The notes beneath the pieces are model-generated. The model was not told the origin of the DNA, did no database searches, and saw nothing but the letters and a program-made list of their open reading frames with translations. A DNA stretch of 64,000 nt from Emiliania huxleyi CCMP1516 (Eukaryota): contig NW_005201277.1 in assembly GCF_000372725.1 (NCBI RefSeq), positions 72,347 to 136,346 on the forward strand, read 5' to 3'. The first letter of the stretch is position 1; every line of letters starts with the position of its first letter. Shown here in pieces: positions 304 through 60,166 of the stretch. Both the position numbers and the translations under genes were made by a program.

Positions 304-953
304 ACGCCGCCGGGGCCACTACACACGCCGGCCAGGCACGGCCACTTTCGTCCCCACTCCTCCGGACCTCCTCGCGAGAGCGGGCTGCTCGAGGCGGAGG
401 AGAGAATTGGGAGGGCGCGCCCCGCTACGAAAGCCCCGCTGGCATGGTGGAGGTGTGCGCTCGCGTGGTGTAATATTCTGTTCGAGCGATCTAGATAGAT
501 ATTGCGGAGCAGGCGCGATTACACCCAAGCATGAGCGCCCAAGAACGCGCGGCCCCCCGCGCGGGGCGCGGGCCGCGGCGCCCGCGGGGGCGGCGGCACG
601 CGGCAGAGCGGCGGACAAACCGCTATATGCGCCACTCGCTTGCTTTTTTTTCGCTCCAGTCCTGCGGATCTTCGTAGACCGGAGGGCTACGAAGCCTTCA
701 CACTCCAAGGGGCTGTATAATTATGCGCTAACCGGCGGAATCCGGAAACGGGAGAAACCGCAAGGCGTTTACGTCAACGTGAGCTACTTTACGCGTCCCC
801 CGCCCGCCGCCCCCGCTCTCCCGCGCCCTCGGCCGCCCCGCCCCGCGCGGGCCGACCGTCCCGCGCGGCGTGTCCCGGCCCAGCGGGCATAGTCCCAGGT
901 CACCTCGTGTTCCTCTGCGGACTGCGCTCTGCCTCTGGGCCGGCGCGGGCTCC

Positions 954-7499: not shown

Positions 7500-7815
7500 A
7501 CCCCTGGCCATCGCAAATCATTTCCCAAACGCAGCTCGGGCGGCCTCCAGATCCGACTAACCCCCATGCGTGCACCGAGCCGTCGGACTTTACCGCGACG
7601 CACGCCATACCACCGCACATCGCGGCGATCACGCCCGAGCTGAGGTCGTCCGGGGACACGTACGTCGTCTCCGTCATCCCTCCCTTGCAATTCAGACAGG
7701 ATCCTTTCTGAGAGGACACCCCCGTTGGGTCGCCTGCGCCCCTCTTTGGATGCCGCCCCCACGCCACCGCCTTGCCGTCTTTCGTCACCGCGACGCATGC
7801 GTTCCCGCCGCACAT
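7500..7815 (-). pseudogene. RCC1/BLIP-II-like repeat gene fragment
   Basis: Two repeats, MCGGNACVAVTKDGKAVAWG and MCGGMACVAVKSDGSVHAWG, without a coherent full-length gene. Confidence 0.5.
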
Positions 7816-8042
7816 TGCTAAAAATCTCTCTCTCTCTTGCCGAGACCACGTTCGAGACCTCAGAAGGGATCACGGGGTCGCCATCAACAATATCTGCCGC
7901 TGCTCTTGCCAATCTTCGCGTACCGTCACGACGAGGTGAGCTTCTGGGAGTTTCTGTTTTTGGATTGGCAATAATTGCTCATATACGATCTGTTTCGGAA
8001 AAAGAAAATCCGCGCCAAAGATTCGGGGCGCCCTTGCCATCG

Positions 8043-9964
8043 ATGGCGGCGCGCGGCGAGACGGCTGAGACGGCTGACCACGTAGAGGCGGTCTTCAGAG
8101 GTGACGAAGTGGCGGTGCGTGTGTGGCTTGAGGGTGGAGGGCGAGCGAACGCCACCCGCGAGCGTCGGGGCGAGGAAGGCGAGGTGACTACTGGCGTAAC
8201 GCTGCTGATGGACGCCGCCATCGAAGGCCACGAGCGGGTGGTCGAGGTGCTGCTGCAGCACGGTGCGGAGATCAACCTGCAGGACAGCGATGGCTGGACT
8301 GCGCTGGTGTGGGCCGCTTCCGAAGGTCACGATCAGGTGGTCGACCTTCTGCTGCGGCACGGCGCTGAGATCAACGCGCAGGACAGCAACGGCTGGACCG
8401 CGCTGATGGGCGCCGTCTTCGCAGGTCACGGGCGGGTGGTCGAGCTGCTGCTTCAGCACGGCGCGGAGGCCAACGTGCAGAGCAGCAAAGGCAGGCACCG
8501 CACCGCGCTGATGCTCGCCGCCATCAACGGCCACGAGCGGGTGCTTGACTTGCTGCTGAGGCACGGCGCTGATGCAGAGGTGCGGGACAACGACGGCGGC
8601 ACCGCGCTGATGGCCGCCGCCGGCAAAGGCCGCCTCCCCGTCGTGCGCTGTCTACTGCAGGCGGGCGCAGACACAAAGGCACGCTCTGTGGCCGGCATGA
8701 CGGCGCTGCAATACGCCAAGGAGGGGGCCAAGCTGGCTAATGCCGACGTTGCTGGTGGTGCTCCTGCAAAGGACCACGCCGGGTGTGTGCGCGCTCTCAC
8801 GGAGCACGCAGCGGCACTGAAGGAGGCGGAGGCGGCAGAGAAGGCGGCAGAGAAGGCGCTCGAGGCCAAGGGGCGGCGCGAGCAGCGCGAGCGGGAGGAG
8901 GCGGCGGCGGCGCGAGAGCGCGAGCAGGCTGCGCGCCGGCGCGAAGCAGAACGAGAGGCGCGCGAGGCGCGCCGGGCGGCGGATGCGGCGGCGCTGGAGG
9001 AGCAGAGGCGGGCGATTGCGGCGGAGGCGGAGGCGAAGCTGGTTGCCGAGCGAGCGGCAGCAGAGGAGACGCTGCGGGCGAGGGAGGCGGAGAGGCGAGC
9101 AGCAGAGGAGGCGCAGCTTGCGGAGCAGCGGGTGGCGGCGGCGGCTCGGAAAGCGGCTCAGGTGGAGACGGCGCGGCGCGAGAAGGAGGCTACTGACAAG
9201 AGGGCGGAGGAGGAGAAGGCGAAGAGGCGCGCAAAGGCGGCGGAGGCGGCGGCGGCCAGGAAGGCGGCCAAGGAGAAGAACAATAAGGCCAAGAAGGCGC
9301 CGCCCGCCTTCAAGCTCGAGGAGGAGCGGAGGGCGCGGGCTGCGGCAGAGGTTCGCGCACAGGAGGAGAGGGCGGCGCAGCTGGCTGCTGAGCAGGAGGC
9401 TGCGAGGCGGGCGGAGCGTGAGGCGGCTGAGCTAGCGGGTGCGGCGGAGCAGGCGGCGCTGCGCGAGGCTGCGGAGCTGGCAGAGGCGTTGCGCCGGTCA
9501 GAGATAGATGCGGAGGAGGAGGCTCTGGCGCGTCGGGTGTCGCGGTGCGAGGAGGCGGTGAGCAGCGAGTCGACCGGCGGCGGGGACCTGATGCGGCGTG
9601 TCGAGCGGCTGGAGGCGAGCCTCGGCGCGGCGACCGAGGGCAGCCTCGAGGAGCGGGTCGGCGCCATCGAGCGCTTGATCGGGCCAGAGGCGGGAGAGGC
9701 GGCGGAGCAGCATCTGCCAGTCACCGAGTCGCTTGCTGCCGTCTCGCTTGCGGACGCCGGCCTCGACACGGGGCGGCCGGCTACCCCCGAGTCCACGATG
9801 GGGGGCGAGACCACGTGCATCGTGTCGGCTTCGCGAGAGTCAAGTCGCATGCTGCGGTCCCGTGCGGGCACCTGTGCGCTTGCGGGCCATGCTCTGAGCT
9901 GATGCAAGAGTGCCCGTATTGCCGCGAGCCGGTGATGATGTGGATGGTCCCGCGTCCGGTCTAG
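8043..9964 (+). CDS. Ankyrin-repeat / coiled-coil / C3HC4 RING protein, with a frameshift near 9825
   Basis: About 6 ankyrin repeats (G.TALM.AA..GHERVVELLL.HGAE.N) and an E/A/R/K coiled coil. The RING starts TCIV in one frame and continues FARVKSHAAVPCGHLCACGPCSELMQECPYCR in another. Confidence 0.85.
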
Positions 9965-14381: not shown

Positions 14382-15033
14382 AGCGTCGCCATACTCGACA
14401 CCCGATGCGTATAACCGATGCGCATAAAAGAATTTTAGAAAGTTTCTCGCAGCTAGCCGGGGGTGCAACACGCGCCGCTGGCGGTAGGGGGCAAGGCGGG
14501 CGAGCACTCGCCGTCGGCTGCTCGGTGCGCGACACGGTGCCAGAGGCGCCTCGAGAACAGTCACAGAGTGGTCGGAAGCCCGCCGCTCCCAGTCCCCCAA
14601 AAGAAGTCAGGTGCGCTGCAACCTCGCGCCGCCGCCGCCCGCCTGGCTAGGAGGGGAAGTCGACGCCGTTGCTCGGATCCACGGTGCACTCGACCGTGTG
14701 CTGATGGAACGGTGCGGGGTCAGGAGCCGCTGCAGGTCGCGAGCATCGACGCGCCGACCGACGACAACCTCTTTGGACTTTGCAGAGCCCGTGCTAACGG
14801 AGCCGCTGCCTCTCTCTCGCTCAACGGAGGAGACGCGCCGCTGCAGGTGTCGTCCGTCGTGCCGCTGCCGCCCGGCGACAACTGCCGGTGGCCCGATGCC
14901 ACCGTAGTGTACACAGGCGACCTCACGCACGCGACGGACGGTGACTCGTCGGTTTTTTTTGGTTCGTTCTTGTGGTTGATGAGAAGTATGAAAACGGGGT
15001 CCCTACCCACGCAAAAGAGCCGGAACCCAAACG

Positions 15034-18000
15034 ATGGTGGGTGCCGGTTCCCAAAGCTGCTTTGACGCGGTCGTGCTAGCGGCTGAGCGAGGCGAGGAGG
15101 AGGCGGTGCTGGCGTGGCTCGAGGGCGGCGGGTGGGCCGACGCGACGTGCGAGAGTGGCGGCGTGAGCGGCGTCACGCTGCTGATGGGCGCCGCCCGCTA
15201 CGGCCAAGAGCGGGTGGTCGAGTTGCTGCTGCAGCGCGGCGCGGAGATCAACCTGCAGGACAGTAACGGCTGGGCCGCGCTGATGTACGCCGCCTTCAAC
15301 GGCCAGGAGCGGGTGATCGAGCTGCTGCTCCGGCGCAGGGCGAAGGTCAACCTGCAGGACAGCAACGGCGCCACCGCGCTGTTGCACGCCGCCTACAACG
15401 GCTGCGAGCAGGTGATCGAGTTGCTGATTCGGCACGGCGCGGAGGTCGACCTGCAGATCAACGGCGTCACCGCGCTGATGGGCGCCGCCTTCCTCAACCA
15501 CCCCGCCGTCGTGCAGCGCTTGCTGCGGGCGGGCGCAGACGCGGCGCGCACTGCTAACGGCAAGACGGCGCTGCAGCTGGCCAAGGAAAAGGGCCACGCC
15601 GAGTGCGTCAAGGTATTGTCGGAGGCGGCGGCGGCTGCAGACGGCCGGGCAGGGGCGGGCGGCGCTTCCTCGGGCGCGGCAGCTGCAGCGGCAGCGGTGG
15701 ACGCGCCGCTGCTCAGACAGCGAGTCGTGCTCGGCGGGCTCTCTTCCCGCCCCGAGCTGAACGGGCAGTGGGGCGTGGCGGGGAGCTTCGAGGGCGGCCG
15801 GTACGCGGTGGCGCTCGAGGGCGGCGGCGAGAGCGTGCGGGTGCGGCCGGGTAATCTGTCGCTGGCGGCGGCGGAGCCGAGCGGTGGCGTGGCAGTCTAC
15901 GACGAGGTCGTGGCAGCGGCTGGGCGAGGCGACGAGGAGGCGGTGCTGGCGTGGCTTAACAGTGGCGGACGGGCCAACGCGACGTACGAGCAAGGCGGCG
16001 TGAGCGGCCTCTCGCTGCTGATGGGTGCCGCTGCCCACGGCCACGAGCGGGTGGTCGAGTTGCTGATACGGCGCGGCGCTGAGGTCAACAAGCAGAGCAG
16101 CAATGGCGTCACCGCGCTGATGAGCGCCGCCGTCCGAGGCCAGGAGCGGGTGGTCGAGTTGCTGCTTCGGCACCGCGCGGAGATCAACCTGCGGAACAGT
16201 GGCGGCTTCACCGCGCTTATTGACGCCGCCTTCAAAGGCCACGAGCGGGTGGTCGACTTGCTGATACGGCACGGCGCTGAGATCAACCTGCAGAACGGCG
16301 AAGGCGGCACCGCGCTGATTCTCGCCGCCGACCAAGGCCACGAGCGGATGGTCGACTTGCTGATTCGGCGCGGCGCTGAGCTCAATTTGCAGAGCAGCGA
16401 CGGCGGCACCGCGCTGATGAACGCCGCTTGCTTCAACCACCCCGCCGTTGTGCGGCGCTTGCTGCGGGCGGGCGCAGACACCGCGGCGCGCACTGCGAGC
16501 GGCAAAACGGCGCTGCAGTGGGCCAAGGAGCAGGGCCACGCCGAGTGCGTCGAGGCTTTCAAGAAGCACGTCCAGGATATGCTGGCGGGACGGCCCACGG
16601 CGACAGCAGCCGGCGGCGAAGGCGCGGGCGGCGCTTCCTCCGGCGGCGCTTCCTCGGCTGGATCGAGAGTCGCGAAGACGCCATCTCCAGCGGTGGCGGC
16701 GGGGCGGGCGCCGAGCGGTGTCGTGGCAGTCCCCGATGCGGTCGTGGCAGCGGCTGAGCGAGGCGAGGAGGAGGCGGTGCTGGCGTGGCTTGACAGTGGC
16801 GGGCGGGCCGACGCGACGTACGAGAGAGGCGGCGTGAGCGGCCTCACGCTGCTGATGGGCGCCACCGTGTATGGCCACGAGCGGCTGGTCGAGCTGCTGC
16901 TGCAGCGCGGCGCTGAGGTCGACCGGCACGACAGCAACGGCGACACCGCGCTGATGAATGCCGCCAGCCAAGGCCACGAGCGGGTGGTCGAGCTGCTGCT
17001 GCGGCGCGGCGCGGAGGTCGACCTGCTGAACAGCGCCGGCTACACCGCGCTGATGGGCGCCGCCGGCGAAGGCCACGAGCGGGTGGTCGATTTGCTGTTT
17101 CGGCACGGCGCGGAGATCAACTTGCAGAACGGCGAAGGCGGCACCGCGCTGATGGCCGCCGCCGGCCCGGGCCACGAGCGGGTGGTCGACTTGCTGACAC
17201 GGCACGGCGCGGAGGTCAACCTGCAGGACAGCGACGGCGTCACCGCGCTGATGGTCGCCGCCGGCTACGGCCACGAGCGGGTGGTCGAGCTGCTGTTGCA
17301 GCACGGTGCTGATGTCAACTTGCAGAACAGCAACGGTGGCACCGCGCTGATGATCGCCGCCATATTCAACCACCTCACCGTCGTGCGGCGCTTGCTGCGG
17401 GCGGGCGCAGATGATGCGGCGCGCAGTGCGAGCGGCGAGACGGCGCTGCAGTGGGCCAAGGAGAAGGGCCACGCCGAGTGCGTGCGCACCCTCGAGGAGC
17501 ACACGTCGAGCACAGCAGAGGCTGAGGGGGAGACGGCGGTCGCAGAATCAGCCGAACAGGTCGCGGCGGCCGCACGCGAGGCGGGAGCGGCAGCGGTGGC
17601 GGCGGAGGCGCGCGATGCTGCCGAGGCTGCGCTGCGCGAGGCGGTTGAGGCGTGCGAGCGAGGCGACGCCGATCTCGAGGCGCTCAGGGCGGCGATCAAC
17701 GCAAACACCGAAGCCGCCGACGGCTCGGAGGCGCTGCGGGCGGCGCGGCGGCTGCGCGACGAGCTGGCGGAGCGAAAGGTCCGCGAGGCCAGGGCGCTGA
17801 AGCGGCAGCGGCAGAAGGAGGAGAAGGCGGCGGCGAGGCAGGCGGAGGCGGCGGCGCGGGCGGCGGAGGAGGAGGCGCGGGCGGCGGACGAGGCGCGGGC
17901 GGCTGAGGCAGCTGCGGCGGCGCGGGCGGCGCGGGCATCGGAGGAGGCGGATGAGGCGGCGCGGGCGGCGGAGGAGGCGGAGGCGGCGTCGCGGGCAAGG

Positions 18001-19305
18001 GAGGAGGCGGAGGCGAGGGCAAGGGAGGAGGCAGAGGCGAGGGCAAGGGAGGAGGCAGAGGCGAGGGCGAGGGAGGAGGCGGCAAGGGAGAGGGAGGAGG
18101 CGAGGATGAGGGCGGAGGCGGCGGAGGCAGCGGCGGAGGCGGCGGCTGTAGAGGCGGCAGTGGCGGCCGTGGCGGCGGCGGAGGCTCAAGAGGCGGCGGC
18201 AGCGGAGGCGGCGGCAGCGGCAGCGGCAGCGGCAGCTGCGGCAGCGTCGGCGGCGGCGACTGTCGCCGCCCTCGCCACCGCCGCCGCGCCGCCCGCTGCC
18301 GTCCCTCTCGACGAGCTCATCGCGGCGACCGACGGCTTTGCCGAGGCGCGCAAGGTGGGCGAGGGAGGCTTCGGGCGCGTCTACCGCGCCGACGCGCTGC
18401 CGTCTCTCCCGCGCGTCGCTTGCGGGTTCGCCGTCAAGACGGCGTTGGTCGGTGTCGGCGCCCAAGGCCTCACCGAGCTGCAGAGCGAGGTGCGCACGCT
18501 CAGCACGGCGTGCCACCCGTCCCTGCTCCCTCTTCTCGGCGCTTGCCTGGCGCCGGCGAGAGCGTGCCTCGTCTACCCCCTCTGCCGCGGCGGCAGCCTC
18601 GAGGACCGCCTCTACCGCGCTCCAGCCGCGCTGGAGCGGCTCCGCATGCTCGGCTTCGAGACGCCGCCTCCGCCGCTCTCCTCTGCCGCACGGCTCCGCG
18701 TGCTGCGCGACGCCGCAAGCGCGCTGCACTACCTGCACACGCGCTCTCCGATGATCCTGCACCGCGACGTCTCGGCGGGCAACATCCTGCTCGACGAGCG
18801 CGGCAACGGCTACCTCGCCGACGTGGGCCTCGCGCGCGCGGCAGAGGCGACGGCCGGCGGCAGCCAGCAGGTGTCGCACCTGTCGACGCAGCGCCTCTTC
18901 GGTAAGCTTGGGTACATGGACCCGATCATTTCGCAGAGCGGGCAGGCGTCAGCGCTGACCGACGGCTATGCGCTCGGCATCACGCTGCTCGTCGCCTTGA
19001 CGGGCCGCGGCGCCGTCGGCCTCCTCGACGAGTGCGACGATGCGCTTGAGGAGCCCGACACGGCGGAGGGATCGATCGCGGCGGCCGACGCGGGCTGGTC
19101 GGCGGCGCAAGCCGAGGAGTTGGCGCGGCTGGTGGTCGGGCTGGCTCTTGTGAGGAAGAAGAGGCGGATGCCGCTCGCAGAGGCGCTGCCGCGGCTGGAG
19201 GCGCTAGTCGAGGCGGCGGGGGAGGTGGAGGAGAAGGTTGGGGCCGAGGAGCGCCAGTGTGACCTCTGCTACGACGCGCCGCGCTCGGTCCGTTTCGCGT
19301 GCGGC
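15034..19305 (+). CDS. Multi-ankyrin (3 modules) / SH3-like insert / coiled-coil / RLK-Pelle(IRAK)-like kinase / RING protein, 3' end lost in the gap
   Basis: Three ankyrin arrays. Kinase motifs ELIAATDGFAEARKVGEGGFGRVY, FAVK, LVYP..GGSLEDRL, HRDVSAGNILLD, DVGLAR, GKLGYMDP. RING start CDLC...FACG. The start codon is uncertain. Confidence 0.9.
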
Positions 19306-19829
19306 NNNNNNNNNNNNNNNNNNNNNNNNNNNNNNNNNNNNNNNNNNNNNNNNNNNNNNNNNNNNNNNNNNNNNNNNNNNNNNNNNNNNNNNNNNNNNNN
19401 NNNNNNNNNNNNNNNNNNNNNNNNNNNNNNNNNNNNNNNNNNNNNNNNNNNNNNNNNNNNNNNNNNNNNNNNNNNNNNNNNNNNNNNNNNNNNNNNNNNN
19501 NNNNNNNNNNNNNNNNNNNNNNNNNNNNNNNNNNNNNNNNNNNNNNNNNNNNNNNNNNNNNNNNNNNNNNNNNNNNNNNNNNNNNNNNNNNNNNNNNNNN
19601 NNNNNNNNNNNNNNNNNNNNNNNNNNNNNNNNNNNNNNNNNNNNNNNNNNNNNNNNNNNNNNNNNNNNNNNNNNNNNNNNNNNNNNNNNNNNNNNNNNNN
19701 NNNNNNNNNNNNNNNNNNNNNNNNNNNNNNNNNNNNNNNNNNNNNNNNNNNNNNNNNNNNNNNNNNNNNNNNNNNNNNNNNNNNNNNNNNNNNNNNNNNN
19801 NNNNNNNNNNNNNNNNNNNNNNNNNNNNN
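19306..19829. other. Assembly gap (N run)
   Basis: Run of n. Confidence 1.
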
Positions 19830-20993: not shown

Positions 20994-21891
20994 AAGGTAC
21001 CGATCGAGCTACAAGAGGAGCTTGTTCAGCAGGATGACGAGGTTTGCCACGAAAAAACCCCTGGACTGGAAAGGGGGCTAACTGGGCGGCCAAATTCACA
21101 CCTCGCGGGACTACTTATGTTTTCGTAAACGTAGTCGTGGGTAACCCCCGCTACGTCGCACGAGTGCAACCGGGTAGGGGGGAGCTAAAATCTCTCTCTC
21201 TCTCAGATCTCCCCTCGATCGTGCTACGGAATACTTTTGTTGGATAGGGGTGGGATTCTCCTTCGCCCTTCGGGCTCGGGCTGTGGCGTTTACCTGACAT
21301 CCACACAAGGAATATTCACCGCACAACTGTGAACGGTGACTCGAAGATCTTTCCGCGAAAATTCTTTCGCTCTCTGCGTGAACGCTCTACGCGGAGAGAG
21401 CGAGTCGTAAGCACAAAGGCAAGCCAGCACTTTCCTCGTCCGCTCGCGCTTGCCGCGCCGCATTGCGCCCGACTATGCAGCCGCGAGCTGCACACCTAGA
21501 CTCCCGCGACGCCTATTGCTCACGGAACCCGCCGCCCCCTCACCACCCCGACCATGCGATGCGCCCTCGCTCGCGGCGCGAGCGGCTGTACCCCCCTCGG
21601 CCTCGCACCGCCTGCCTACTCCCGCTCGCAGGTACAGCCGCTGCCATGGAGGAGGCCGCGAGACGCGTCCGCTGCTGCCCATTCCACACCCTTGTCCCGC
21701 GCGAACCCGTCCGACCGCCCTCCCTCTCTTACGCGGGTACTCGCACCGCCTCGCATCTCTGCTACATCTAGAGAGTGCCAAGACTCTGTGTCCGCAGCCG
21801 CGAGGGCCACTCGAGCGCTGGCCTGCACCTACCATCGGGGACACCACCTTCAACCGCTTCTTGACTCTCTGCAGGAATTCATTCGATCAAC

Positions 21892-24784
21892 ATGCTCAAA
21901 GTCGAGCTCGTGCCGGCCGCCGGTGGCAAGCTCGTGCTCAAGCTCTCTCCTCCGCCGCCGCTTGCTGACAAGCAGGTGTGCGTTAATTTGCAGTGGCTGA
22001 GGGAGGGGGTATGCACACGCGCACCGCTGCAACGCACGCAACGCTGCGCCTTCCCTGCAAGACGACCCTCTCGCGTTCTGTGGCTGACAGGCGTCTCTGG
22101 CGGACAACACGGCCGTCGTCGTCTCTGACGGAGGTAACGCCGTCGGCATCCCCTCCGAGCCCGTCTCGCTCAAGGATGGCATCGACACCGGCACCGGCGG
22201 CACCTGCACCGCCAACACCGGCACTGGCAACGTCCCGTCCGAGGGCGAGCCCGCCGGCTCGCTCGCCGGCGTCCACTTTGCGGGCGTTTCGCTCGACGCC
22301 GTGCCCGAGGCGTTCACCGTCGACGATCCGGCCGGCGCCAAGGCCGTCGGCATCCCGCCCGAGAGCGAGCCCAGCCCGCTCAAGGACGGCATTGACGCGA
22401 GCGGTGGCAACGTCGCGGGCGAGTCTTCGCCGATGAAGTCCTTCGCGAAGGTCGGAGTCATCTCCGAGTCGGTGTCGCCTTCGCTCCTCGGAGCGAAGGT
22501 GCGCGTGCGCTCGCCAGGATCGTTATCATCCCTCTCCCGTCTCTGAAAGCCTGTGCGTACTTTCCCTCGCCCACAGGCGTGCGGCGTCAAGAACGTCAAG
22601 GACATCCCCGTGGCAAAGTCTGGCACGGAGGACGTCCTCAAGAAGGACCCGGCCGCGGAAAAGGCGCCCGACGCGGGCGCGGTCGACTCGGACAAGGCCA
22701 AGGCCATGTTCGCCACCCACCCGCCCGCCGTTTTCTGGTCCAAGTTTACGCGCCCGACCGGCCCACCGACGGCCCCCACCGGCGCCGTCAAGGGCGCCCT
22801 CAAGAAGGACATCCCTGCGGCAACGTCTGGCGCGGAGGCCTGCGTTGACGAGACCGGCGCCATCAAGAACCCGGCGCTCAAGCCGGCCACCGAGGTCGCC
22901 ACGGCCCTCAAGCCGGCGGAGGCCGGCGGCGCGCCGCTGCCGTCGATCAAGGAATTTCCGGAGGAGAAGAAGCCCGCCGCCACGGCGGCGAGCGCCTGGT
23001 GCGCGCCGGCTGCCGACCCACTCTGTGACCCCATCCCGCGTTCGACGCGTAGGGCGACGCCGACTGGAAGGAGTTTCCAGAGGAGACGGCCGCCCCGGCG
23101 GTGAGCACCTCCCAGCAGACGCACACGCGGGTATTGCGGGGACACGCGAGTCCTACAGGCGGGCACTTACATTGATCCTGTGACCTCTCGTCTGCCGCAC
23201 GGCACGCGCGCGCAGGTCATCGACGGGTGGAAGACCCCCTCCCCGCTCCGCAAGATCGAGCGCAAGGAGTCTCCGCTAGCGGAGAAGCTCGCCCCGGCGG
23301 TGAGCGCCTCGCACGCTGCGGTTGTACGCGCAGAGCCTCAACTATTGACGCACCCACCGCTTGCGCGTGCGCAGGGCATCCCCGACAGGGCCACGCGCCG
23401 CAAGAAGGGGCGCAAGGGCGCGTCCGCCCCGATCGTCCGCACCAAGAGCATCGCCCCAGTCGGCGGCAACAACAGGTTCGGGGCCCTGCTCAAAATGGAC
23501 GGCAACGAGGGCATCCTCGGTGGCACCGGCAAGGTGACCGGCGGCTCCACGCCGCCGACCGCAGACTCGGTGCGCGCCGCCTGCATTTATGCGGCCTCCT
23601 CCCTCGCTCGCCGCTCTCACACGGCCAGTCTCGCGCCCTCTTGTTCAGGGTGCGACGGTCGACGTCGAGACGACCACGAATACCACGCCCGAGGGCTCTG
23701 CCGCCGGCCGGTTCCCGTGGCCAAAGTCCTACAACTTGCTCCGCCTCTTTGGCATCCTCGCGCTGATCTGCCTCGGAGCCGCGTTTGCGCACTCCTCGTG
23801 CTCTGCCACCTCCGCGCTTCTCTCCTCGCAGCGGTACGACTCCCCGTGGCCGACATCGCCTCCCGCAACCGTCGCGAAGCCGTTCACGCCGGCATCGCCC
23901 AACGGATTCTGCGAGGTTGGCGGCAACGACACCAGCTCGTTTGCAGCCATCGTGTCGTCGGACAGCGCGCCCGCCAACCACCCGGTGCGCGCTCGCTCGC
24001 GCGTGCAGTATCCGCAAGCTCGCGACTAACAGCCCGCGCGCTGTTCAGGGCGGGCACGAGGACGGGCGCTCGTGGGAAGCACTGATGGAAGCGATCAAAG
24101 AGGCGGTGGGCGAGCCGTTGCACCTAATTGGCGAGCCGCCGGCGTCCGTCAAGGACCTTTACGAGAAGCAGCCGGTGAGCGCCCCTCTGGCTGTTTCTAT
24201 GTGCGAGCTTTGTACTCCGGTTCCGGATTGTGCCTGTTGTTGGCGTGTAGGCCGAGGCCGACTTGGAGACCGTCCCGGCCTCGCGCAACACCATGGAGCG
24301 CAAGGGCGAGCCCGAGATCGACTCTATCGGTCCCGTCTACAGCAGCAGATCGGGGATCATCGTTCGCGAAACCGTCCTGCCCGTGAACGGCACGTCGCCC
24401 GAGATGCGGTCCGCCGACGCTGGGATCACGCCCGAGAAGCTGGTTGAGACTGGCCTCGGCGCGCCCGTCTCTAGCATGCACGCCGGCGGCGAGTGGCGGG
24501 TGAACAGATTGGCGACCGCTTCTCCAGCCACAACCAAGGATCTCTTCCTCCAGCTTGGCCGGGCCATCGACCCTCTTCTCGCGGAGCCGGCATGGCCTGC
24601 AGAGGTCCGTGCCGCTCAGATCTCCGATTCGAACTCGGTCCAGTCCGATATCTCCTCCGTCTCACGTGTGTGCGCCGACCGGCAGCCACGCTGCGCCGCC
24701 CCCGTTGCGTGGCATGCGGAGCCTCACCACGCACTCACCGACGAGCTCTCCATCGACCTGCCCTCCCCGTTCCACTTTCCCTTC
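21892..24784 (+). CDS. Low-complexity multi-exon coding region, possibly the 5' part of the downstream TIR receptor gene or a separate gene
   Basis: Host-like codon usage, plausible splice sites (e.g. intron 22499-22576), an internal AVGIP.E..LKDGID repeat and one hydrophobic segment. The last exon is in frame with the 24263 ORF. Confidence 0.5.
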
Positions 24785-27700
24785 ATGAGCGGACCCTCCT
24801 CTTCCGCGCCTGTCCGCACCCAGCAGCGCTGTCAGTTTTGGGCCGCCTTGTTCGTGCTGCTCGGAGCGTGCGGCGGCGTGCTGCTCTCGGTGCGGAGGAG
24901 CAGCTCGGGGCGCCTCGTGCGGTGCCGGACGGGGGCGAGGCGTGGCGCGTGGCTGCTGATTCTCGCCGCGCTGCTCCCGCTGGCATGTGCACCATCAGTC
25001 TACACGTCTGGCTCGGGCGAGTCTGGCTCTGGGGAGATTGGCTCTGTTGACATCGATCCGTCGCCATCTCCCGAGCCGTCGCCAGCTCCATCGCCCGAGC
25101 CGTCACCGTTTCCCGAATTTCCCGAGCCGTCGCCCGAGCCTGAGCCGTCGCCGTCTCCCGAATTTCCCGAGCCGTCGCCCGAGCCTGAGCCGTCGCCGTC
25201 TCCCGAATTTCCCGAGCCGTCGCCGCCGCCGTACCCTCCGCCGCCGCCGCCGTCCCTTCCGCCGCCGTCCCCGCCGCCGCCATCAGTCCACACGTCTGGC
25301 TCGGGCGACTTCCAGGTCACTGTGGGTGGCGGTAGCTATCCGTCCGATGTGTCGTGGGACCTGACGTGCAGCGGCGCGTTGATCGGCAGTGGAGGGGCCC
25401 CCTACTTTGGCACCCTGTCCGCGCCGCCCGGCGAGTGCACGCTCGACATGTACGACTCGTACGGCGACGGCTGGACCGGCAACGAGTGGAAGGGTGCGGG
25501 CTATACGTTCACGCTCGGCTCCGGATCCTATGGCAGCGAGACGTTCATCCTCGCCCTCCTCCCTCCGCCCTCTCCGTCGCCGCCGTCGCTGCCGCCGCCG
25601 GCGCCGCCAATCGACTTCCAGGTCACTGTGGGTGGCGGCGACTGGCAGTCCGATGTGTCGTGGGACCTGACGTGCAGCGGCGCGTTGATCGGCAGTGGAG
25701 GGGCCCCCTACTCCGGCACCCTGTCCGCGCCGCTCGGCGAGTGCACGCTCGACATGTACGACTCGTACAGCGACGGCTGGACCGGCAACGAGTGGAAGGG
25801 TGCGGGCTATACGTTCACGCTCGGCTCCGGATCCTATGGCAGCGAGACGTTCATCCTCGCCGCCCTCCCTCCGTCCTCTCCGTCGCCGCCGCCTCTGTCG
25901 CCTCTGCCGCCGCTCTCCCCGGACTTTGTCGCCGCGGCGAGCGAGGCCGAGCTCCGCTCCCTGATCACGGAGGCTGCTGCTTCGCAAGCCAACGTCGCAA
26001 TCTACCTGCCGTCCAGGGCAGACTTCAAGCTGGGCAGCCAGATCAGCTGCTCCTCCGACATCAAGGTGACCGTCGCGAGCAGCGGCGAGGGCGCGACGCT
26101 CGACGGCCGGGGACAGATCGGGCTCTTTTACCTCTCGGGCGGCTGCAGCCTCACCCTGCGGGGGCTGAACCTCGTCAACGGGAGGGCGACAAACTACGGC
26201 GGCGTTGTGTACGCGAGTGGCGCAGGCGACGTCGAGATCATCGATTCGGTCGTGAGGGACTGCTCTGCTGGCTATGTGCGCCGCGTAGAGCTAGCCGCAC
26301 TCCAGCAGCGCCGCACGGTAGCGGGGCGAGAGATAGAGAGGGCCACGGCTGCCTCACCCCGCTCTCTCCTCGCAACCGCAGGCCGGCGGCGGCGTCTTCG
26401 CGCAGTACAGCGGTGTGGTCTCGATCATCGACTCAGATGTGTCGGACTGCTCTGCTTCTTATGTGCGCCGCGTAGAGCTAGCCGCACTCCAGCAGCGCCG
26501 CACGGCAGCGGGGCGAGATATAGAGAGGGCCACGGCTGCCTCACCCCCGCTCTCTCTTCGCAACCGCAGTTCGGCGGCGTCGTCAGGGTGGATAACAGCG
26601 GTGCGGTCTCGATCATCAACTCGGATGTGTCGGGCTGCTCTGCTGGCTCTGTGCGCCGCGTAGAGCTAGCCGGCCTCCAGCAGCGCCGCACGGTAGCGGG
26701 GCGAGAGATAGAGAGGGCCACGGCTGCCTCACCCCCGCTCTCTCTTCGCAACCGCAGTTCGGCGGCGTCGTCAGGGTGGATAACAGCGGTGCGGTCTCGA
26801 TCATCAACTCGGATGTGTCGGGCTGCTCTGCTGGCTCTGTGCGCCGCGTAGAGCTAGCCGGCCTCCAGCAGCGCCGCACGGTAGCGGGGCGAGAGATAGA
26901 GAGGGCCACGGCTGCCTCACCCCCGCCCTCTCCTCGCAACCGCAGGAGGGCGGCGTCGTCTACGCGGAGGACAGCGGTGCGGTCTCGATAAGCGGCTCGA
27001 ACGTGACGAGCTGCTCTGCTGGCTCTGTGCGCCGCGTAGAGCTAGCCGGCCTCCAGCAGCGCCGCACGGTAGCGAGGCGAGAGACAGAGAGGGCAACGGC
27101 TGCCTCACTCCCGCTCCCTCCTCGCAACCGCAGTACGGCGGCGTCGTCTCCGCCAATCAGAACAGCGGTGTGGTCTCGATCATCGGCTCGGCCGTGACGA
27201 GCTGCTCTGCTTCTCAGGTGCGCCGCGTAAAAAACTAGCCGCCACCCCTGCAGCGCCGCACGGCAGCGGGGCGAGAGATGTAGAGGGCCACGGCTGCCTC
27301 ACCCCGCTCTCTCCTCGCAACCGCAGTGGGGCGGCGTCGTCTTCGCGTCTAACAGCGAGTCCCTCTCCATCGCGGATGTCGACTTCACCGACAACAGAGC
27401 CAGCCTCTCAGGCTCGGTGCTGTACCTTTCAAACACGCCCTCCTCGATCAGCGCCGCCTCCTTCACCGGCAACACTGCTGGCGACGACACGACGATACAG
27501 ACCGACAAGCCGATAGACTGGGACTGCCGCTTGGGCAGCTGGATGCGGCACCAGGGCTCCTTTTTTGGCGACTTCAGCGTCCCCGAGTGCAACCTTTGCC
27601 CCGCTGGCTACTATGGGAACAGGAGCGGCCTCACCAACTCCTCCTGCGAAGGTGCGTGTAAGCGAGGCCACTTTTGTCCCAAGGGCACAGCGGAACCGCT

Positions 27701-30700
27701 CCCGTGTGCTCCGGGCTTCTACATGCCCGTGATTGGCGCAGCCAGTGCCGAGTCGTGCCTCCCTTGCTCTCCGGGGACGAGCCAGTCCACAGCCGGCACG
27801 GACCGTCCCTGCGACGAGTGTCCTCCCGGCACGTTCGCCGATCAGCTCAACGCCACCAGCTGCACCGACTGCCCCGCGGGAAGCTTCTGCCCGAATGCAG
27901 GCACCATCCAGCCCCTCGACTGTGCCGCAGGGCAGTACCAGAACCTCACCGGCCAGGCTGCGTGCATGCAGTGCCCTGCTGGCGAGTTCCAGGCGGAGCG
28001 CGGACAGACGGCATGCGACACGTGTGAAGCGGGTGGATACTGCGAAGTCACAGACGACTGTGGCGGCGGCTTCACGCCCTGCCTTGCGGGGAGCTACAAC
28101 GAGAAGACGGGCAGCAGCTCACCAGATGCCTGTCAGAAGTGCCCCCCCGGTACCTCTGGCCCGATCACCGGCGCAAACAGCAGCGAGACCTGCGCGAGCT
28201 GCCGTGCTGGGACGTTTGGCGGCGAGCCCGGGCTGAGTGAGTGCAAGGACTGCCCTGCCGGCAGTTATCAGAACGATACGGGCGCGACGTCCTGCCGCGA
28301 CTGCGAGAAGGGACGGTACTGCGCCAAGGGCGCGTCGGCGCCGCTGCCGTGCGATGCGGGTACCTACTCGGACAAGACGGACCTCACCGCCGCCTCGCAG
28401 TGCGTCGACGCCTCGCCGGGCCACTTTGCCACCACCGGCTCCACAGAGCAGACGCCGTGTCGCGAGGGTAGCTTCGCCGCCAAGGCGCGCAGCGAGGCCT
28501 GCGAGCTGTGCGGCCAGGGCTACTACCAGAGCGCGCCCGCCGCCGCTGCCTGCGTCCGCTGCGCTCCCGGCAAGTTTTGCCCGGTGGGGTCGTCGCGCGA
28601 GCTGGACGCGCAGTGCGAGGCGGGCACGTACGCCAGGCTGACCGACCGGAGCGGCGACCCCGAGTGCCTTACCTGCCCCGCCGGCTCGTCGTGCGGCGGC
28701 GGGGCGGCGCCGCCCTCCGAGTGCTCGCCGGGCTCTTTCGCCGCCACGGCCGGCCTCTCCAAGTGCGCCAGCTGTGCGGGCGGGACGTACCAGGGCGAGT
28801 CGAACGCGACGAGCTGCCTTCCGTGCGTGGAGGGCAGCTACTGCGCCGAGGGCGCGTCGGCGCCGCTGCCGTGCGAGGGCGGCAGCTACTCGCGCGCGGC
28901 CGACAACGACGAGCCGGACGACTGCACGCCGGCCGATGCTGGCTTTTTTGCGGTGACGGGCTCCACCGAGCAGACGCCGTGCTCGCCAGGCACCTTCACC
29001 GCCCTCGCCGGACAGAGCATCTGCGAGAGGTGCCCTCGCGGCACGTCCTCCGGCGCCGGCAGCTCTTCCTGCGACGAGTGCGCTGCCGACACTTACGCCG
29101 CCAACGAGGGCCAGGGCGAGTGCATCCCCTGCCCCTACCCTCTTGCCAGCGGCACTGGCAGCGTCACCTGCTCCGTCTGCAAGGCGGGATTCTACCTGAA
29201 GGCGAGCGCCGACCCGGCCGACGTCTTCAAATCCCCAACCGAGTACTGCAAGCCATGCCCATCGGACGCCGCGTGCCCGGTCGGCACGACCCTCGAGACC
29301 CTCGGCGTCCCGCTCGGCTTCTGGCGCGCCAGCTTCTCCAGCGCCGAGCTCACAGAGTGCCGCGCCTTTGGAGGGGATGGCCAGGCGGGCCAGGCGCGGT
29401 GTGTCGGCAATGTTGATCCGGGAGAGGCTAGCGGTCGGAGGGTGCAGGAGGCCGGCTTGGACTACTGCGCAGACGCCTTCGCCGGCCCCGAGTGCCAGCT
29501 CTGCCGCGAGCCGAACCACTACCTGGACGCCGACGGCGCCGCCTGCAACGAGTGCGTCGCTGTCGGCACGGCGGCGGGGCGCATGGCGGGCACCGCCCTC
29601 GGCCTCTGCGTCGCGTTTGGCCTCGTGGCGTTGGCGTACTCAACTCAGCGCGGGCAAACCGAATGGAGGAAGGAGCGCTTCATCGGACTTCCCTTGCGCA
29701 TCGCCGACCGCACCGGTGACGCGATTTACAAAATCGGCCTCATCCCCAAGTTCAAGATCTTGTTTGGCTTCTACCAGGTCTGCCTCGTCCTCTCCACCAC
29801 CTACTCGGCGCGGCTGCCGGAACGGTACACGGGCTGGACGGAGGCGCTGGCCGAAGCCGTCTTCATCGACTGGTCGGGCATCGTGCTGCCGGTGCAGTGC
29901 CTGCCGCACAAGTCCCGGCTCGTCGCCGTCGCGATCTCTCCCATCGGCGTCATCGCCCTGCTCCTCTTTGCTGGCATTGTCTTGCGGCTCTGTGCTCGCT
30001 GGCGGCGTGCTCGGCGAGGGGCTGGCCGCGAGAGCGGCTCCGAGGTCGACGGCGCGACAAGCAACGTTCTCGGTGGCGAAGCACAGCTGCAGGAGCCACC
30101 ATCGTCTTCAGCTGCGGAGCCACCGACGGCGCTGGCCGAAACTGACGATGCGGCGGTCTTTTCATGGCCTGCAGAGGTGGCGCTCGGCCTCCTCGACCTC
30201 ACGCCGGCGGGTCTCGTGCTCATCTTTCTCTTCGTGCCGTCTGTGAGCGCCACAATCTTGCGCGCGTGGTCGTGCCAGGTGCTAGCCACAAACAAACAAG
30301 CACCCCCCCCCCCCCCCAACCCCCTTAGCTTGTGTCGATGTGCGTGCGCAGGGCTACACCACCTCTGCGCCGGGCGAGACGCTCGCTCTGGTCGAGTACA
30401 TGCGGCAGGACGCGAGCGTCGAGTGCGGCACCGACGAGCACGACTCCATCACGAGACTCGCCACCGGCTTCGTCGTCATCTGGCCGGTCGGCTCGCTAGT
30501 CCTCTACTCGGCCCTTCTTCTCGCATGCTACAAGCCGCTGCAGGCCAAGTCGCCGAACGCGCTGACGAAGGCCACCGCCTTCCTTCACCGGGAGTACAAA
30601 AGGAACTGGTACTGGTGGGAGGCGGCCGATCTGGCCCGCAAGCTCTTTCTGACGGGCTTCGTGCTGCTGGTTGCCGAGGAGGAGGACTCCTTTGTTCGTC

Positions 30701-32789
30701 TCGTCGTGGCGGTGCTCGTGTGTTCGTGCTACGCCGTCGCGATCGCCCTGGTCCAGCCCTACAAGCGGTTCGGGGACAACATCCTCGCCGTGGTGCGCCC
30801 TTCGCCCATCCCACGCGCCCTTTGCGCTTGCTTGTGCTGCAGCTCTCAGCACACGCTTGGATCGCCATCGCCAGTCCATCACCCACCCCACACACGCCCT
30901 TCCCCTGCAGTCACTCTGCAGTCCACTCTGAGCCCAACGCACGCGGCTCGCACTGCAGGCCACCAGCCTCGTCCTCCTCCTCCTCTTCCTCGGTGCCAGC
31001 TGGACCACCATCTTCCTCAACATCGAGTTGCGATTCCCCGGGGACGAGCCGGGGCAGTCGGCCTCCGCCGTCCTCGGCTTCAGGTCTGAGAATGGACTGG
31101 TGAACTGGATGCTCGTCCTTACTGCGGCTGCGCTCCTGATCTTCCTCGTGGGTACCATCATCGCCATCCGCCGCCTTGCCAAGGTCCCCACGATTCGCCT
31201 CGTCTCAACCAAGCAGCCCCCCGAGCTGGCTCTGGTGGACGGCCTCACGTGGCACCTCTTCCTCTCGCACATCTGGTCAGTCCTGTGGTCAGAGGGAGAC
31301 GCGGCGTAGGAGAACCCGCCAGAACGACCCGCCACTCCCCGAATAGGTCCACCGGCCAAGACGCCGTCGCGGTCATCAAGAATGAGCTTAAGCTCTTGAT
31401 CCCCGGCATCAAGATCTTCCTCGATGTGGATGATTTGAAGGACATCGGGTCGCTGGAGGATTACGTTGACCGCACGCAGGTCATGCTCTTCTTCCTGTCG
31501 AAGGGCTACTTCCGCTCGAAGGCACTCCCCCAGCCCCTCCCTTTCCGTGCCTCGCTGTGTCGCCCACGACTACTCGTGCGCTCCTTGCCTGCAGAACTGC
31601 CTGCGCGAGATTCGGACGTCGCTCGAGAAGAGCAAGCCGCTCGTCCTCGTGCAAGAGGCGGACCCGGCCAAGGGCGGCGGGACGCTGCAGGCGCTCCCCG
31701 CCCGACCCCTGCTCGATGACCCTGCGGGGATTGCTCTCGCCACACACGGCTCTGAGGGGCGGTGTCGCCGCCGCCGCCGCACGCCAGCACTCACTCACGC
31801 ATACCGTCGCTGCACGACTGCAGGAGTTGCGAGCACAGTGCCCGGAGGTCCTCCAGCCGGAGATCTTTGACAGGGGGTGGGCGCAGACGACGTGGCACCG
31901 CATCGACGAGTATCAGCGTGTCTCGCTTAAGATCATCTCCGAGGTGCCGCCACGGACCTGCAGCTGTTCTGCCGTCGCCTCGACCTTGACCGCCGCCCCC
32001 TCGCACCTACCCACAGGCGCTCCTCCTCTGCTCGCCACACTACCTGAACCTGACCTCCCTCGCGCTCTTCATCCCGGGCGAGGTCCAGGGCCAGCCGATC
32101 TCCTTCTCCAAGTCCGTCGTGCTCTGGGCCTCGCCGTTCGATGAGGGCGCAGACGAGCTGGCCAGCGAGCTCGCCACCAATTTCTCCGGTCTCACCGTCT
32201 CCACCGCCGAGGAGGCGGGCGACGCCACGCACATGCTTCTCTATCTGAACGCCGACACCTGGTCCGACGAGCGGCTGGCCGAGCAGGTCAAGCAGGCGCG
32301 CCAGGACAGGCTGAAGATCGTCATGGCGCACGAGAACGACCTCGACCGCGGCGGCTGTGAGTTCGCCAAGTTTTTTGAGACCACGCCGCAGGAACGCTGC
32401 CGATCAGCGGTCGATCTTTTATGTCCCGCCCGCTCCATGCCCCCCTTCCCCGCCGCCGCAGGAGCTCATCAACGCCGGGCTCTACGACGCCCTCGCCATT
32501 GCCTGCTTCCCTGGCCTGCACCATGAGGTGCGCTCCCCCGGCGGCACCTTTGCCACAGCGCCCGCCTCCTGAAGCGACTGATCTTGCACCCCCGGTCTCA
32601 CAGGTGTCGCTCGTGCTGCTGGCCAAGGCTCTGGGCGCAACCCCGGTGAGCGCTCGCTCGAGCATCCGCGACTCGCTTTCGAATATCGGGCGCTTCACTA
32701 CCGTGCCTCGCGGCTCGACGACGTCCGACCCAGTCGTTACCGAGGAGGATTCGCAGCTGGAGCAGCTGCCAGAGGTGGAGCAGGTGTAG
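24785..32789 (+). CDS. Large membrane receptor: signal/TM, PEPS stalk, 2x DSYGDGW beta-domain, PMP-like beta-helix, GCC2/GCC3 (ephrin-receptor-like) Cys repeats, about 9 TM, two TIR domains
   Basis: GGVV beta-helix coils and many C.PG.F/Y..C..C repeats. TM block with FKILFGFYQV, FLHREY..YWWE..LARK and QPY. TIR1 HLFLSHIW|STGQD...IFLDVDDL...FFLSKGYFRSK|NCLREI. TIR2-like MLLYLNADTW...IVMAHE...FFETTPQ|ELI. Stop at 32787-32789. The start may lie upstream. Confidence 0.85.
26276..27326 (+). repeat. Tandem array of about 188-bp intron+exon units (6 near-identical introns, 5 cassette exons)
   Basis: Introns GTGCGCCGCGTAGAGCTAGCC...CGCAACCGCAG at 26276-26381, 26463-26569, 26651-26757, 26839-26945, 27027-27133 and 27218-27326. 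Confidence 0.95.
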
Positions 32790-33958
32790 AGGTGACGAGC
32801 AACTTTGCAGTTCGGCTCAAGCGGCAAGGGTTGGATCGCGCTAACCACTTCCAAGAGTTGCGCTGCGTTGGCATAGGGCGTTTTATGTAACATGCTGAGG
32901 CTTCCTCGTAACGACGAGCTAACATATTAGAGACGACTCTCTCTCATCCCCACTGTGAACAGTCGGGATCTGTATCTGCGCAGCTAAATGTATAGAATTT
33001 TACAACAAAATGTATAGAAAACGCTAAACGGCAGGGAGTTAATGAATAGCGCTCTACATTTTTACCACAAGCGCACAAGGCGCGCGCTGCATATCGATAT
33101 CCCTCTACAGGGCCCGCAATAATACGCAATCGCCCGCGCGCTCCCGCGCGCTCAGGGATGTCAGTACCCACGCCGAGGAGTACGGAACCGCCCCGTACGA
33201 CCTCTCCCGAGCACTTTTCTCACTATATCCTTATCGTATGAAACACTTGTTGGGTTACCACGTCTCTTCCTCTAAGGAGAGGAGAGGCTCGGCGTCCGGG
33301 TAGCCGTCGTACTCGACCGCATCCACACGAGCCGGCCGCCCGAACCCTCCTCCCGCCACGTGATGGTGGCCGACCACCCTGCTCGCCTAGGATCTCGACG
33401 TGCGTGCCTGTCTCGACGACAGCGTGCCCGGCCAGCCTCGCCGTCGCGTCCAAGCGCAGCCGCTCCGCCGCGCCTCCTGCGTCTCCGCGGGCTGCCGCAG
33501 CACATAGTGTCGGCCGTACTCCGCCACGCCCGCGAGGACGTCAGCCGCTCACCGTCTCGACGCCGCCTCGATTGGCGGAGGGGCTCGACCCGTGGTTCCG
33601 TGACCTACCGCGCCAGCGAGGGCTCCTGGTGCGCCGCCCGTCGGTCGACGCCCTCGCCCCTGCGCTACCAACGACGCCGTCGCTGTCCTCGCCGACGTGA
33701 CCGTGATCCGAGGCCGCTCATCCACGCCGAGAGCAAAATCCAGAACGACGCGCTCTTCGACGGGGGCTCGGGGTACGGGTGGGATTCCCCCTCGGGGGGC
33801 GGCGCTTTCTTCTAGGCGCCCGCCTTGACCCAACATAGAGGGCGTTGTGTAGCCTAGCTTTTGGGTAATATAACACAAATCCAGAACCCAATACGAGCCG
33901 ACCCCCCCCCTTTGACCCCCCCCTCTTGGACGCGTCCACCCTCCGTCCAATCGAGCCG

Positions 33959-59545: not shown

Positions 59546-59577
59546 CCACTCCACACCGCGCGAAAGCGACCGCAACA

Positions 59578-60131: not shown

Positions 60132-60166
<35 letters not shown>

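What the first reader, a model, noticed from the sequence alone, without database searches (positions are those of the whole stretch)
26195..27420. One-coil-per-exon cassette array in a TIR receptor ectodomain: candidate modular variable-receptor system
Seen: six near-identical 106-109 nt GT-AG introns separate five phase 0-0 exons of 81, 81, 81, 81 and 84 nt (26382-26462, 26570-26650, 26758-26838, 26946-27026, 27134-27217). Each exon encodes one beta-helix-like coil: AGGGVFAQYSG, FGGVVRVDNSG (twice, identical), EGGVVYAEDSG and YGGVVSANQNSG, flanked by YGGVVYASGAG and WGGVVFASNSE. Differences cluster at codon 1 and codons 6-9, while the framework and the introns stay nearly constant. Any exon can be skipped, duplicated or swapped without a frameshift. 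Established: brown algal (Ectocarpus) LRR-ROCO and NB-ARC-TPR genes use repeat-per-exon shuffling for candidate immune receptors. Inference: this is an analogous, independently built diversification system based on a beta-helix and wired to TIR output.
Basis: partly seen in the sequence, partly recalled or inferred. Interest (0 to 1): 0.88.

Follow-up and report, generated by a model that had tools for sequence, protein, structure and literature searches.

The report
Swappable coil exons in algal receptors
In a bloom-forming marine alga, a family of likely cell-surface receptors builds its predicted outer binding rod from small repeated exons, one per turn, and six positions in each turn change far faster than the DNA around them, which likely keeps changing what the cell recognises.

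Summary
The array is real at the stated coordinates: six 106-109 nt GT-AG introns and five phase-0 exons. It sits in a gene whose model reads open for 2,382 aa: beta-helix, ephrin-like Cys stalk, about 7 membrane segments, TIR. The closest named relatives are Gephyrocapsa (Emiliania) huxleyi proteins. The array is not a single-locus oddity. The same intron occurs in 12 of 23 metagenome loci, always at a coil boundary, with 1-8 cassettes per complete array. A paralog folds as a right-handed beta-helix with one coil per cassette. Codons 1, 6, 8, 9, 26 and 27 show omega about 5 (2dlnL 89; recombining null at most 36) and fall, by inference, on one face. Intron 3 is an exact chimera of introns 4 and 2. 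A paralog only 31% identical in stalk, membrane and TIR has a 98%-identical intron. Best reading: inherited diversification by unequal crossover through the shared intron, exchange between loci and selection on the binding face. Exon skipping, somatic change, strain variation at this locus and the ligand are untested. It works like brown-algal ROCO exon shuffling but is not a member.

The parts
24251..26275 (+). Long open frame upstream of the array: low-complexity region, two hydrophobic segments (possible signal or anchor), Pro-rich linkers, two copies of an unnamed domain of about 85 aa, beta-helix N-cap and first coil. The true start codon is not determined.
   Evidence: 98% identical over 253 aa to metagenome protein P0141, which has one copy of the small domain
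25306..25913 (+). 306-nt tandem duplication (two small domains with Pro linkers); no Pfam family
25946..26275 (+). Beta-helix N-cap and first coil; ends at the first array donor
26276..26381 (+). Array intron 1 (106 nt); differs at 2 of 106 nt from an intron in paralog L013
26382..26462 (+). Cassette 1 (81 nt, one coil)
26463..26569 (+). Array intron 2 (107 nt)
26570..26650 (+). Cassette 2 (81 nt), identical to cassette 3
26651..26757 (+). Array intron 3: 5' part equals intron 4 at 4 of 4 informative sites, 3' part equals intron 2 at 2 of 2 (crossover between intron positions 57 and 89)
26758..26838 (+). Cassette 3 (81 nt)
26839..26945 (+). Array intron 4 (107 nt)
26946..27026 (+). Cassette 4 (81 nt); framework differs at 2 of 63 nt from an L013 cassette, variable codons at 9 of 18 nt
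27027..27133 (+). Array intron 5 (107 nt)
27134..27217 (+). Cassette 5 (84 nt, one extra codon near codons 8-9)
27218..27326 (+). Array intron 6 (109 nt), the most divergent
27327..30278 (+). Long exon: last coils of the helix, Cys-rich ephrin-receptor-like (PF07699) stalk, first membrane segments
30352..31275 (+). Two exons (30352-30792, 30959-31275) with the remaining membrane segments and the TIR start
31347..31943 (+). TIR exons (31347-31521, 31595-31690, 31824-31943); two GC donors; Glu in an NCLRE motif at model residue 2107
   Evidence: spliced joints in 4 of 4 runs laid
32017..32790 (+). Final exons (32017-32391 with an apparent GA donor, 32462-32527, 32604-stop); conserved C-terminal region
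   Evidence: these last junctions are not confirmed by the RNA rows shown

Best explanation
This is one member of a G. huxleyi-type family of likely cell-surface receptors whose predicted beta-helix binding rod is encoded one coil per exon between copies of a shared intron, and whose specificity is likely diversified over generations by unit duplication, exchange between family members and selection on six positions per coil. Shown: the architecture; the family; different cassette numbers between loci; excess amino-acid change at codons 1, 6, 8, 9, 26 and 27; a chimeric intron between two identical exons; an ectodomain that is much closer between paralogs than their membrane/TIR part. Inferred: (1) the near-identical intron is the homology that lets units misalign, so crossover inside an intron adds, deletes or swaps whole coils in frame; (2) the six residues stack along the T3-PB1-T1 face of the helix and form the binding surface; (3) ligand binding is passed through the Cys stalk and the membrane bundle to the TIR domain; (4) the ligand is a fast-changing foreign surface, most likely of a virus or bacterium.
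For: The intron occurs in 12 of 23 loci from the motif scan, all beside a GGVV coil. Complete arrays have 1, 1, 2, 3, 5 and 8 cassette exons. Cassette lengths vary (78-165 nt), yet 31 of 32 are multiples of 3, and the exception has an internal donor after 81 nt; intron lengths take all three remainders (22/11/6). 27 of 28 aligned cassettes have distinct six-residue variable sets. With variable columns defined on metagenome cassettes only, the window's cassettes give pN 0.58 there, against framework pS 0.11 and intron p 0.06. M2a vs M1a: 2dlnL 89.5, omega 5.1; 44-202 on other trees or without the junction codons; at most 36.3 in 33 neutral simulations, 22 of them with recombination. Chimeric intron 3 and a 219-nt perfect repeat. 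In L003 and L005 the array introns are 88-91% identical to the window's, while downstream introns are unalignable or 57-75% in the aligned parts and downstream exons 74-77%. Mosaic: N-cap and helix end are 80-82% identical to P0143 but 34-42% to P0144; membrane and C-terminal parts are 86-93% to P0144 but 53-69% to P0143. AF2 pLDDT 88, VIA Z about 24 to beta-helices. A relative with a similar N-cap start, 8 predicted membrane helices and TIR is among the virus-responsive TIR genes in PMC12489294 Table S9 (first 400 nt read by eye).
Against: No ligand, localisation or TIR activity was tested. Omega comes from 27 codons under my own M1a/M2a code. Recombination inflated the test in simulation (up to 36), and whole-codon replacements and codon bias, which also inflate it, were not modelled. 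Loci were picked by exact intron ends, which biases towards intron similarity. The N-cap coding DNA is as similar as the intron (83-92%), so the whole module may be exchanged rather than the intron being special. The intron tree is mostly unresolved (2 of 36 branches starred). The 12 loci come from only two assemblies and some partial contigs may be one gene. The structure is of a paralog, and the outward orientation of side chains is inferred from alternation, not measured. None of the four named paralog ids searched appears as an annotation in the supplement rows shown.
Confidence: 0.66

Rival explanations
1. Same diversification mechanism, but the ligand is not a pathogen: self/non-self or mating recognition, or adhesion to glycans or prey.
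For: The closest folds are polysaccharide-binding beta-helices and adhesins; the coil resembles Chlam_PMP adhesin repeats. Nothing here ties this gene to infection.
Against: TIR is a defence signalling domain in most systems (established knowledge). Related multi-membrane TIR genes are induced during viral infection (PMC12489294 section 20 and Table S9).
Confidence: 0.2
2. Neutral tandem repeat: exon-plus-intron units duplicate by slippage, gene conversion homogenises them, and surface positions merely drift.
For: In-frame units are expected without any adaptive system. Recombination produces false positive selection signals. Intronless relatives build the same helix (P0001, P0142, P0138).
Against: Neutral sites should not exceed the intron or synonymous rate, but variable codons differ at 54% of nt against 6% in introns and 12% in the framework. 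In nine non-identical pairs with at most 4 of 63 framework differences, 2-6 of the 5-6 variable residues differ. The observed 2dlnL is above all 33 nulls.
Confidence: 0.1
3. The array mainly serves alternative splicing: cells skip or choose cassettes to make several helices from one gene, as reported for Ectocarpus ROCO genes.
For: Every skip is in frame and all splice sites are interchangeable. Splice variants of LRR exons are reported in brown algae (PMC11378527). One contig in run X1 joins first exon, one cassette and last exon.
Against: That contig's cassette is not one of the window's five, and indels in the last exon appear at the same depth, so it is better read as a one-cassette paralog (cf. 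L005, L007). Loci with a single cassette have little to choose from. The introns show no special folding (z -0.1 to -0.7).
Confidence: 0.12
4. The intron is a mobile introner-type element that inserted repeatedly.
For: Near-identical introns in many genes; the family also has intronless members.
Against: In 12 of 12 loci it lies at the same coil boundary of the same gene family. No target-site duplication or terminal repeat was seen. No copy lies elsewhere in the window or in viral contigs.
Confidence: 0.03
5. The identical cassettes 2 and 3 are an assembly error (one unit doubled). This would not affect the rest of the array.
For: A false overlap inside similar introns gives the same chimeric pattern; the perfect repeat is 219 nt. 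No read was seen to span the array.
Against: The other four units are all distinct, and multi-unit arrays occur in independent assemblies and annotated proteins.
Confidence: 0.1

Closest known systems
Brown algal LRR-ROCO and NB-ARC-TPR exon-shuffled receptors (PMC3341825, PMC11378527; passages read)
   Same: One repeat per exon, repeat number varies between paralogs, positive selection at a few sites on the presumed binding face, candidate immune role.
   Different: Here the repeat is a 27-aa right-handed beta-helix coil, the protein is predicted to span the membrane and ends in TIR, and the host is a unicellular haptophyte. Introns are short near-identical copies in phase 0 (PMC11378527 gives phase 2 for ROCO LRR exons). 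No opposite-strand exon copy lies in the window, and there is no ROC-COR or NB-ARC.
Fungal NLRs with concertedly evolving WD/ANK/TPR repeats (PMC4986451; passages read)
   Same: High internal repeat identity, exchange within and between family members, repeat-number variation, positive selection at a few positions per repeat.
   Different: Those are intracellular NTPase receptors. Here there is no NTPase, each unit carries an intron, and the repeat is a beta-helix coil on a predicted surface protein.
G. huxleyi TIR-domain genes induced in EhV infection (PMC12489294; abstract, passages, section 20, supplement rows)
   Same: Multi-membrane TIR_2 proteins with a similar TIR box and the conserved Glu; cogent9830_i1 begins with a similar N-cap.
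   Different: The parts read describe no beta-helix array, exon structure or selection ('exon' and 'pectin lyase' have 0 occurrences in the main text). This gene was not identified among the 12 Table S9 rows shown.
Pmp-like (PF02415) / Beta_helix (PF13229) repeat proteins, e.g. Rhombotarget A
   Same: Right-handed parallel beta-helix with a GG-hydrophobic motif per coil (Z 24.6, rmsd 2.3, 248 aligned, 22% identity to 9cdu).
   Different: Cassette coils carry an invariant Cys (VxxCxA) where the end coils have FxxN; eukaryotic, intron-split, joined to a membrane bundle and TIR.

Membership tests
Brown algal exon-shuffled LRR-ROCO / NB-ARC-TPR | One repeat per in-frame exon of near-constant length | tested here: met
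Brown algal exon-shuffled LRR-ROCO / NB-ARC-TPR | Positive selection at a few repeat positions | tested here: met
   (short alignment, own code)
Brown algal exon-shuffled LRR-ROCO / NB-ARC-TPR | LRR or TPR repeat with ROC-COR or NB-ARC domain | tested here: not met
   The repeat folds as a beta-helix; Pfam gives no such domain in window exons or paralogs
Brown algal exon-shuffled LRR-ROCO / NB-ARC-TPR | Silent or inverted repeat exons inside introns as a reservoir | tested here: inconclusive
   None in the window; one exon relic inside an L022 intron; genome not available
Brown algal exon-shuffled LRR-ROCO / NB-ARC-TPR | Alternative splicing of repeat exons | tested here: inconclusive
   Only contigs were laid; one array joint shown, probably a paralog; 156 joints not shown
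Right-handed parallel beta-helix (PF13229 / PF02415-like) | Three strands per coil, parallel stacking | tested here: met
   AF2 model of the P0143 stretch, pLDDT 88, pTM 0.87; VIA Z 21-25 for the 50 rows shown; PF13229 passes its cut-off in P0144 and P0142
TIR domain (TIR_2, PF13676) | Sequence match to the family | tested here: met
   Indirect: window exon 50% identical over 56 aa (E 4e-18) to the P0146 TIR, which scores 34 bits against a cut-off of 28; 70% identical over 130 aa to P0145. Single exons gave no direct hit
TIR domain (TIR_2, PF13676) | Catalytic Glu and NADase or signalling activity | not testable with these tools
   A Glu is present in the NCLRE motif (equivalence to the catalytic Glu recalled); activity needs an assay
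Introner elements | Copies at unrelated sites with terminal repeats or target-site duplications | tested here: not met
   12 of 12 loci at the same coil boundary; no such flanks; genome-wide search not possible
Fungal NLR concerted-repeat receptors | STAND NTPase (NACHT/NB-ARC) core | tested here: not met

The most novel reading that the evidence does not exclude
G. huxleyi keeps a genome-wide library of interchangeable beta-helix coil cassettes. The shared intron lets them move between receptor loci fast enough to change binding specificity within bloom populations or even clonal cultures, so that these TIR receptors decide which giant-virus strains a cell detects: a variable-receptor immune system in a single-celled alga.
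Probability: 0.15. Interest if true: 0.92.

Novelty: new variant of a known kind. Interest (0 to 1): 0.7.

Why it matters
How G. huxleyi recognises its bloom-terminating viruses is open. PMC12489294 reports TIR genes induced in infection, but in the parts read it names no variable recognition module. This family offers concrete candidates: a short amplifiable array and six scored positions per coil that can be tested against strain-specific resistance. It also suggests that repeat-per-exon receptor diversification arose again on a different fold, a beta-helix, in a unicellular lineage.

Tried and rejected
No whole genome is held, so a genome-wide intron count was not possible. RNA across the array itself stayed unresolved; only contigs were laid, on the whole gene, and uneven depth there is no evidence. 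Viral contigs: 0 matches to the intron motif. 11 of 23 motif loci were chance matches and were dropped. Four of 32 cassettes (111, 129, 145, 165 nt) were left out of the codon alignments, and one of the identical pair was left out of the likelihood tests. Intron secondary structure is no better than shuffles. The intron tree is mostly unresolved and was not used for order of events. Loose local alignments of short loci to the stalk were ignored as noise. The search with the long exon was swamped by Cys-rich repeat proteins. The sequence search of the PDB gave one weak useful hit. The seventh protein and one row were in the wrong frame and were discarded (redone). The wide structural search was not obtained. 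Earlier scan findings: nothing returned. Paper searches on Emiliania/huxleyi with TIR, beta-helix, tandem exon, polymorphic, seven transmembrane and introner terms listed no paper describing this array; the library lacks most subscription papers. Table S9 sequences were cut at about 400 nt, so their ectodomains could not be compared.

Full report
Observation. Introns differ at 2-12 of about 107 nt, non-identical cassettes at 13-20 of about 81 nt, and cassettes 2 and 3 are identical. The array is the strongest tandem repeat in the window (score 1586), and neither intron nor exon recurs elsewhere in it.

The gene. Fifteen exons from 24263 to 32790 translate without a stop for 2,382 aa. The order is: N-terminal region with two hydrophobic segments, two small unnamed domains, beta-helix, ten PF07699 stretches, seven hydrophobic segments, then a TIR-like region. 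Five downstream junctions appear spliced in 4 of 4 runs laid. Those reads could also come from a paralog with a nearly identical membrane/TIR part. The TIR call is indirect: 50% identity over 56 aa to a paralog TIR that passes the PF13676 cut-off, whereas the single exons tried gave no hit. The start codon and the membrane topology are not established. The nearest named relatives are E. huxleyi proteins, so the window is from G. huxleyi or a close relative.

A family, not one locus. A motif made of the two intron ends found 23 distinct metagenome loci. Twelve carry the homologous intron and 11 are chance matches. The twelve come from two assemblies. In all of them the intron sits at a coil boundary. 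Ten loci yield 27 cassettes; complete arrays hold 1 (L005, L007), 2 (L002), 3 (L021) or 8 (L022) exons, against 5 here. L003, L005 and L013 reach a TIR region. Including the window, 31 of 32 cassettes are multiples of 3 although lengths run from 78 to 165 nt; the exception has a donor after 81 nt. Intron lengths take every remainder. This argues that the cassettes are spliced and coding. Among 36 best-scoring relatives of the N-cap, 23 run into an intron-like read-through right after the first coil. Annotated paralogs EMIHUDRAFT_207811 and _215127 have three cassettes each and TIR. Other relatives encode such coils in one continuous frame (P0001, P0142, P0138), so the intron is confined to part of the family; gain or loss was not polarised.

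Fold. A 281-aa stretch of EMIHUDRAFT_207811, folded with 11 sequences, gives pLDDT 88 and pTM 0.87, with one turn per cassette and strands at codons 5-8, 13-16 and 19-21. It aligns to right-handed beta-helices at Z about 24, rmsd 2.3-2.8, and the language-model look-alikes are Chlam_PMP/Beta_helix clusters. From the short turn between the second and third strands I assign codons 5-8 to PB1. Codons 26, 27 and 1 then lie in T3, codons 6 and 8 point outward from PB1 (5 and 7 are conserved small or hydrophobic residues), and codon 9 begins T1. In one pectate lyase described in a review, the Ca2+ next to the substrate site lies between PB1 and T3 (PMC10992409, passages).

Selection. 28 cassettes were aligned on 27 codons (four long ones dropped). 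The GG, V5, V13, S18 and C23 columns are invariant in the 23 metagenome cassettes, while codons 1, 6, 8, 9, 26 and 27 take 9-11 residues each. With variable columns defined on metagenome cassettes only, the window's cassettes show pN 0.58 and pS 0.18 there, against pN 0.08 and pS 0.11 in the framework; intron p is 0.06. M2a beats M1a by 2dlnL 89.5 with omega 5.1 at exactly those six codons. The result holds without the junction codons (44.3), on a framework-only tree (202) and on a star tree (145, 65), though the star tree changes the site list. Neutral simulations gave at most 5.4 without recombination and 36.3 with it (33 runs). Whole-codon replacements and GC codon bias were not modelled and would inflate omega, so its size is uncertain. 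The contrast with introns does not depend on the model.

Duplication and exchange. Intron 3, between the identical exons, matches intron 4 at all four informative 5' sites and intron 2 at both 3' sites. This is what a one-unit duplication with crossover inside the intron gives; an assembly slip would look the same and is not excluded. L013 is only 31% identical in stalk, membrane and TIR, yet has an intron 2 nt from window intron 1 and a cassette whose framework is 2 of 63 nt from cassette 4 while 5 of 6 variable residues differ. In L003 and L005 the array introns (88-91%) and, in L005, the N-cap (91%) are far closer to the window than the downstream introns and exons are. The window protein is a mosaic, with its helix like EMIHUDRAFT_207811 and its membrane/TIR part like EMIHUDRAFT_459945, which carries a different, longer helix. 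Against over-reading: loci were ascertained by intron ends, window introns mostly cluster together, and the tree is weak.

Expression of the array. One listed joint in run X1 uses the first array donor exactly and joins it to a cassette absent from the window, then to the last exon; indels at the same depth point to a one-cassette paralog. Two UniRef proteins join the first exon to a cassette and then read into the intron (P0121, P0123); that they derive from transcripts is recalled, not shown. Skipping is therefore neither shown nor excluded.

Function. A predicted surface rod under diversifying selection, wired to TIR, is most simply a recognition receptor. PMC12489294 (abstract, passages, section 20, supplement rows) reports 15 TIR genes that change during EhV infection. 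One of them, cogent9830_i1, has 8 predicted membrane helices, a related TIR box and, by eye, a similar N-cap. That is a relative, not this gene, so the immune role remains inferred; self-recognition or adhesion is the main rival.

Comparison. It works like brown-algal ROCO/TPR exon shuffling (PMC3341825, PMC11378527; passages) and fungal NLR concerted repeats (PMC4986451; passages), but fails their defining domains. PMC11378527 notes that somatic recombinants have not been reported even in brown algae. Five paper searches listed no description of this array, within a library that lacks most subscription papers. Verdict: real, a new variant of a known kind, interest 0.7.

Noticed in passing
window 21880-24230 (+): Intron-rich coding stretch similar (35-88% over pieces) to the N-termini of gene models EMIHUDRAFT_459945, _215127 and _200377. 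It may be the 5' part of this gene or a segment duplicated along with it.
   Followed up: partly
window 25306-25913: Unnamed domain of about 85 aa in two copies; one copy in near-allelic P0141 and in P0143. It matches only unnamed Atlas clusters. Paralogs carry MAM, CUB or kringle domains at this place, a second layer of modularity.
   Followed up: partly
P0144 (EMIHUDRAFT_459945), about residues 1200-1450: A second kind of near-identical coil array, varying at equivalent positions, on an almost identical membrane/TIR module; its exon structure is unknown.
   Followed up: no
L022 oriented 2184-2348 and 2642-2786: One exon holds two coils with no intron between them; another intron contains a relic of first-exon sequence.
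   Followed up: partly
L007, L013, L021, L022 vs L002, L003, L005, L015, L018: Two different last-exon types follow the same cassette array.
   Followed up: no
window 31521/31522, 31690/31691, 32391/32392: Two GC donors (junctions seen in RNA contigs) and one apparent GA donor (unconfirmed).
   Followed up: partly
window 7644-9902 and 14992-19306 (+): Two long frames with 99-nt near-identical repeats. The first is ankyrin by Pfam; the second has the same repeat consensus and was not scanned in that frame.
   Followed up: no
window 6094-6786: 168-nt tandem repeat, 4.1 copies, probably coding; the + frame gave no Pfam hit.
   Followed up: no
window 728-1849 (-) and 59515-61509 (+): FG-GAP-like repeats; nucleoside hydrolase with a weak PAN domain.
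   Followed up: no
window 19306-19829: Scaffold gap of 524 N.
   Followed up: no
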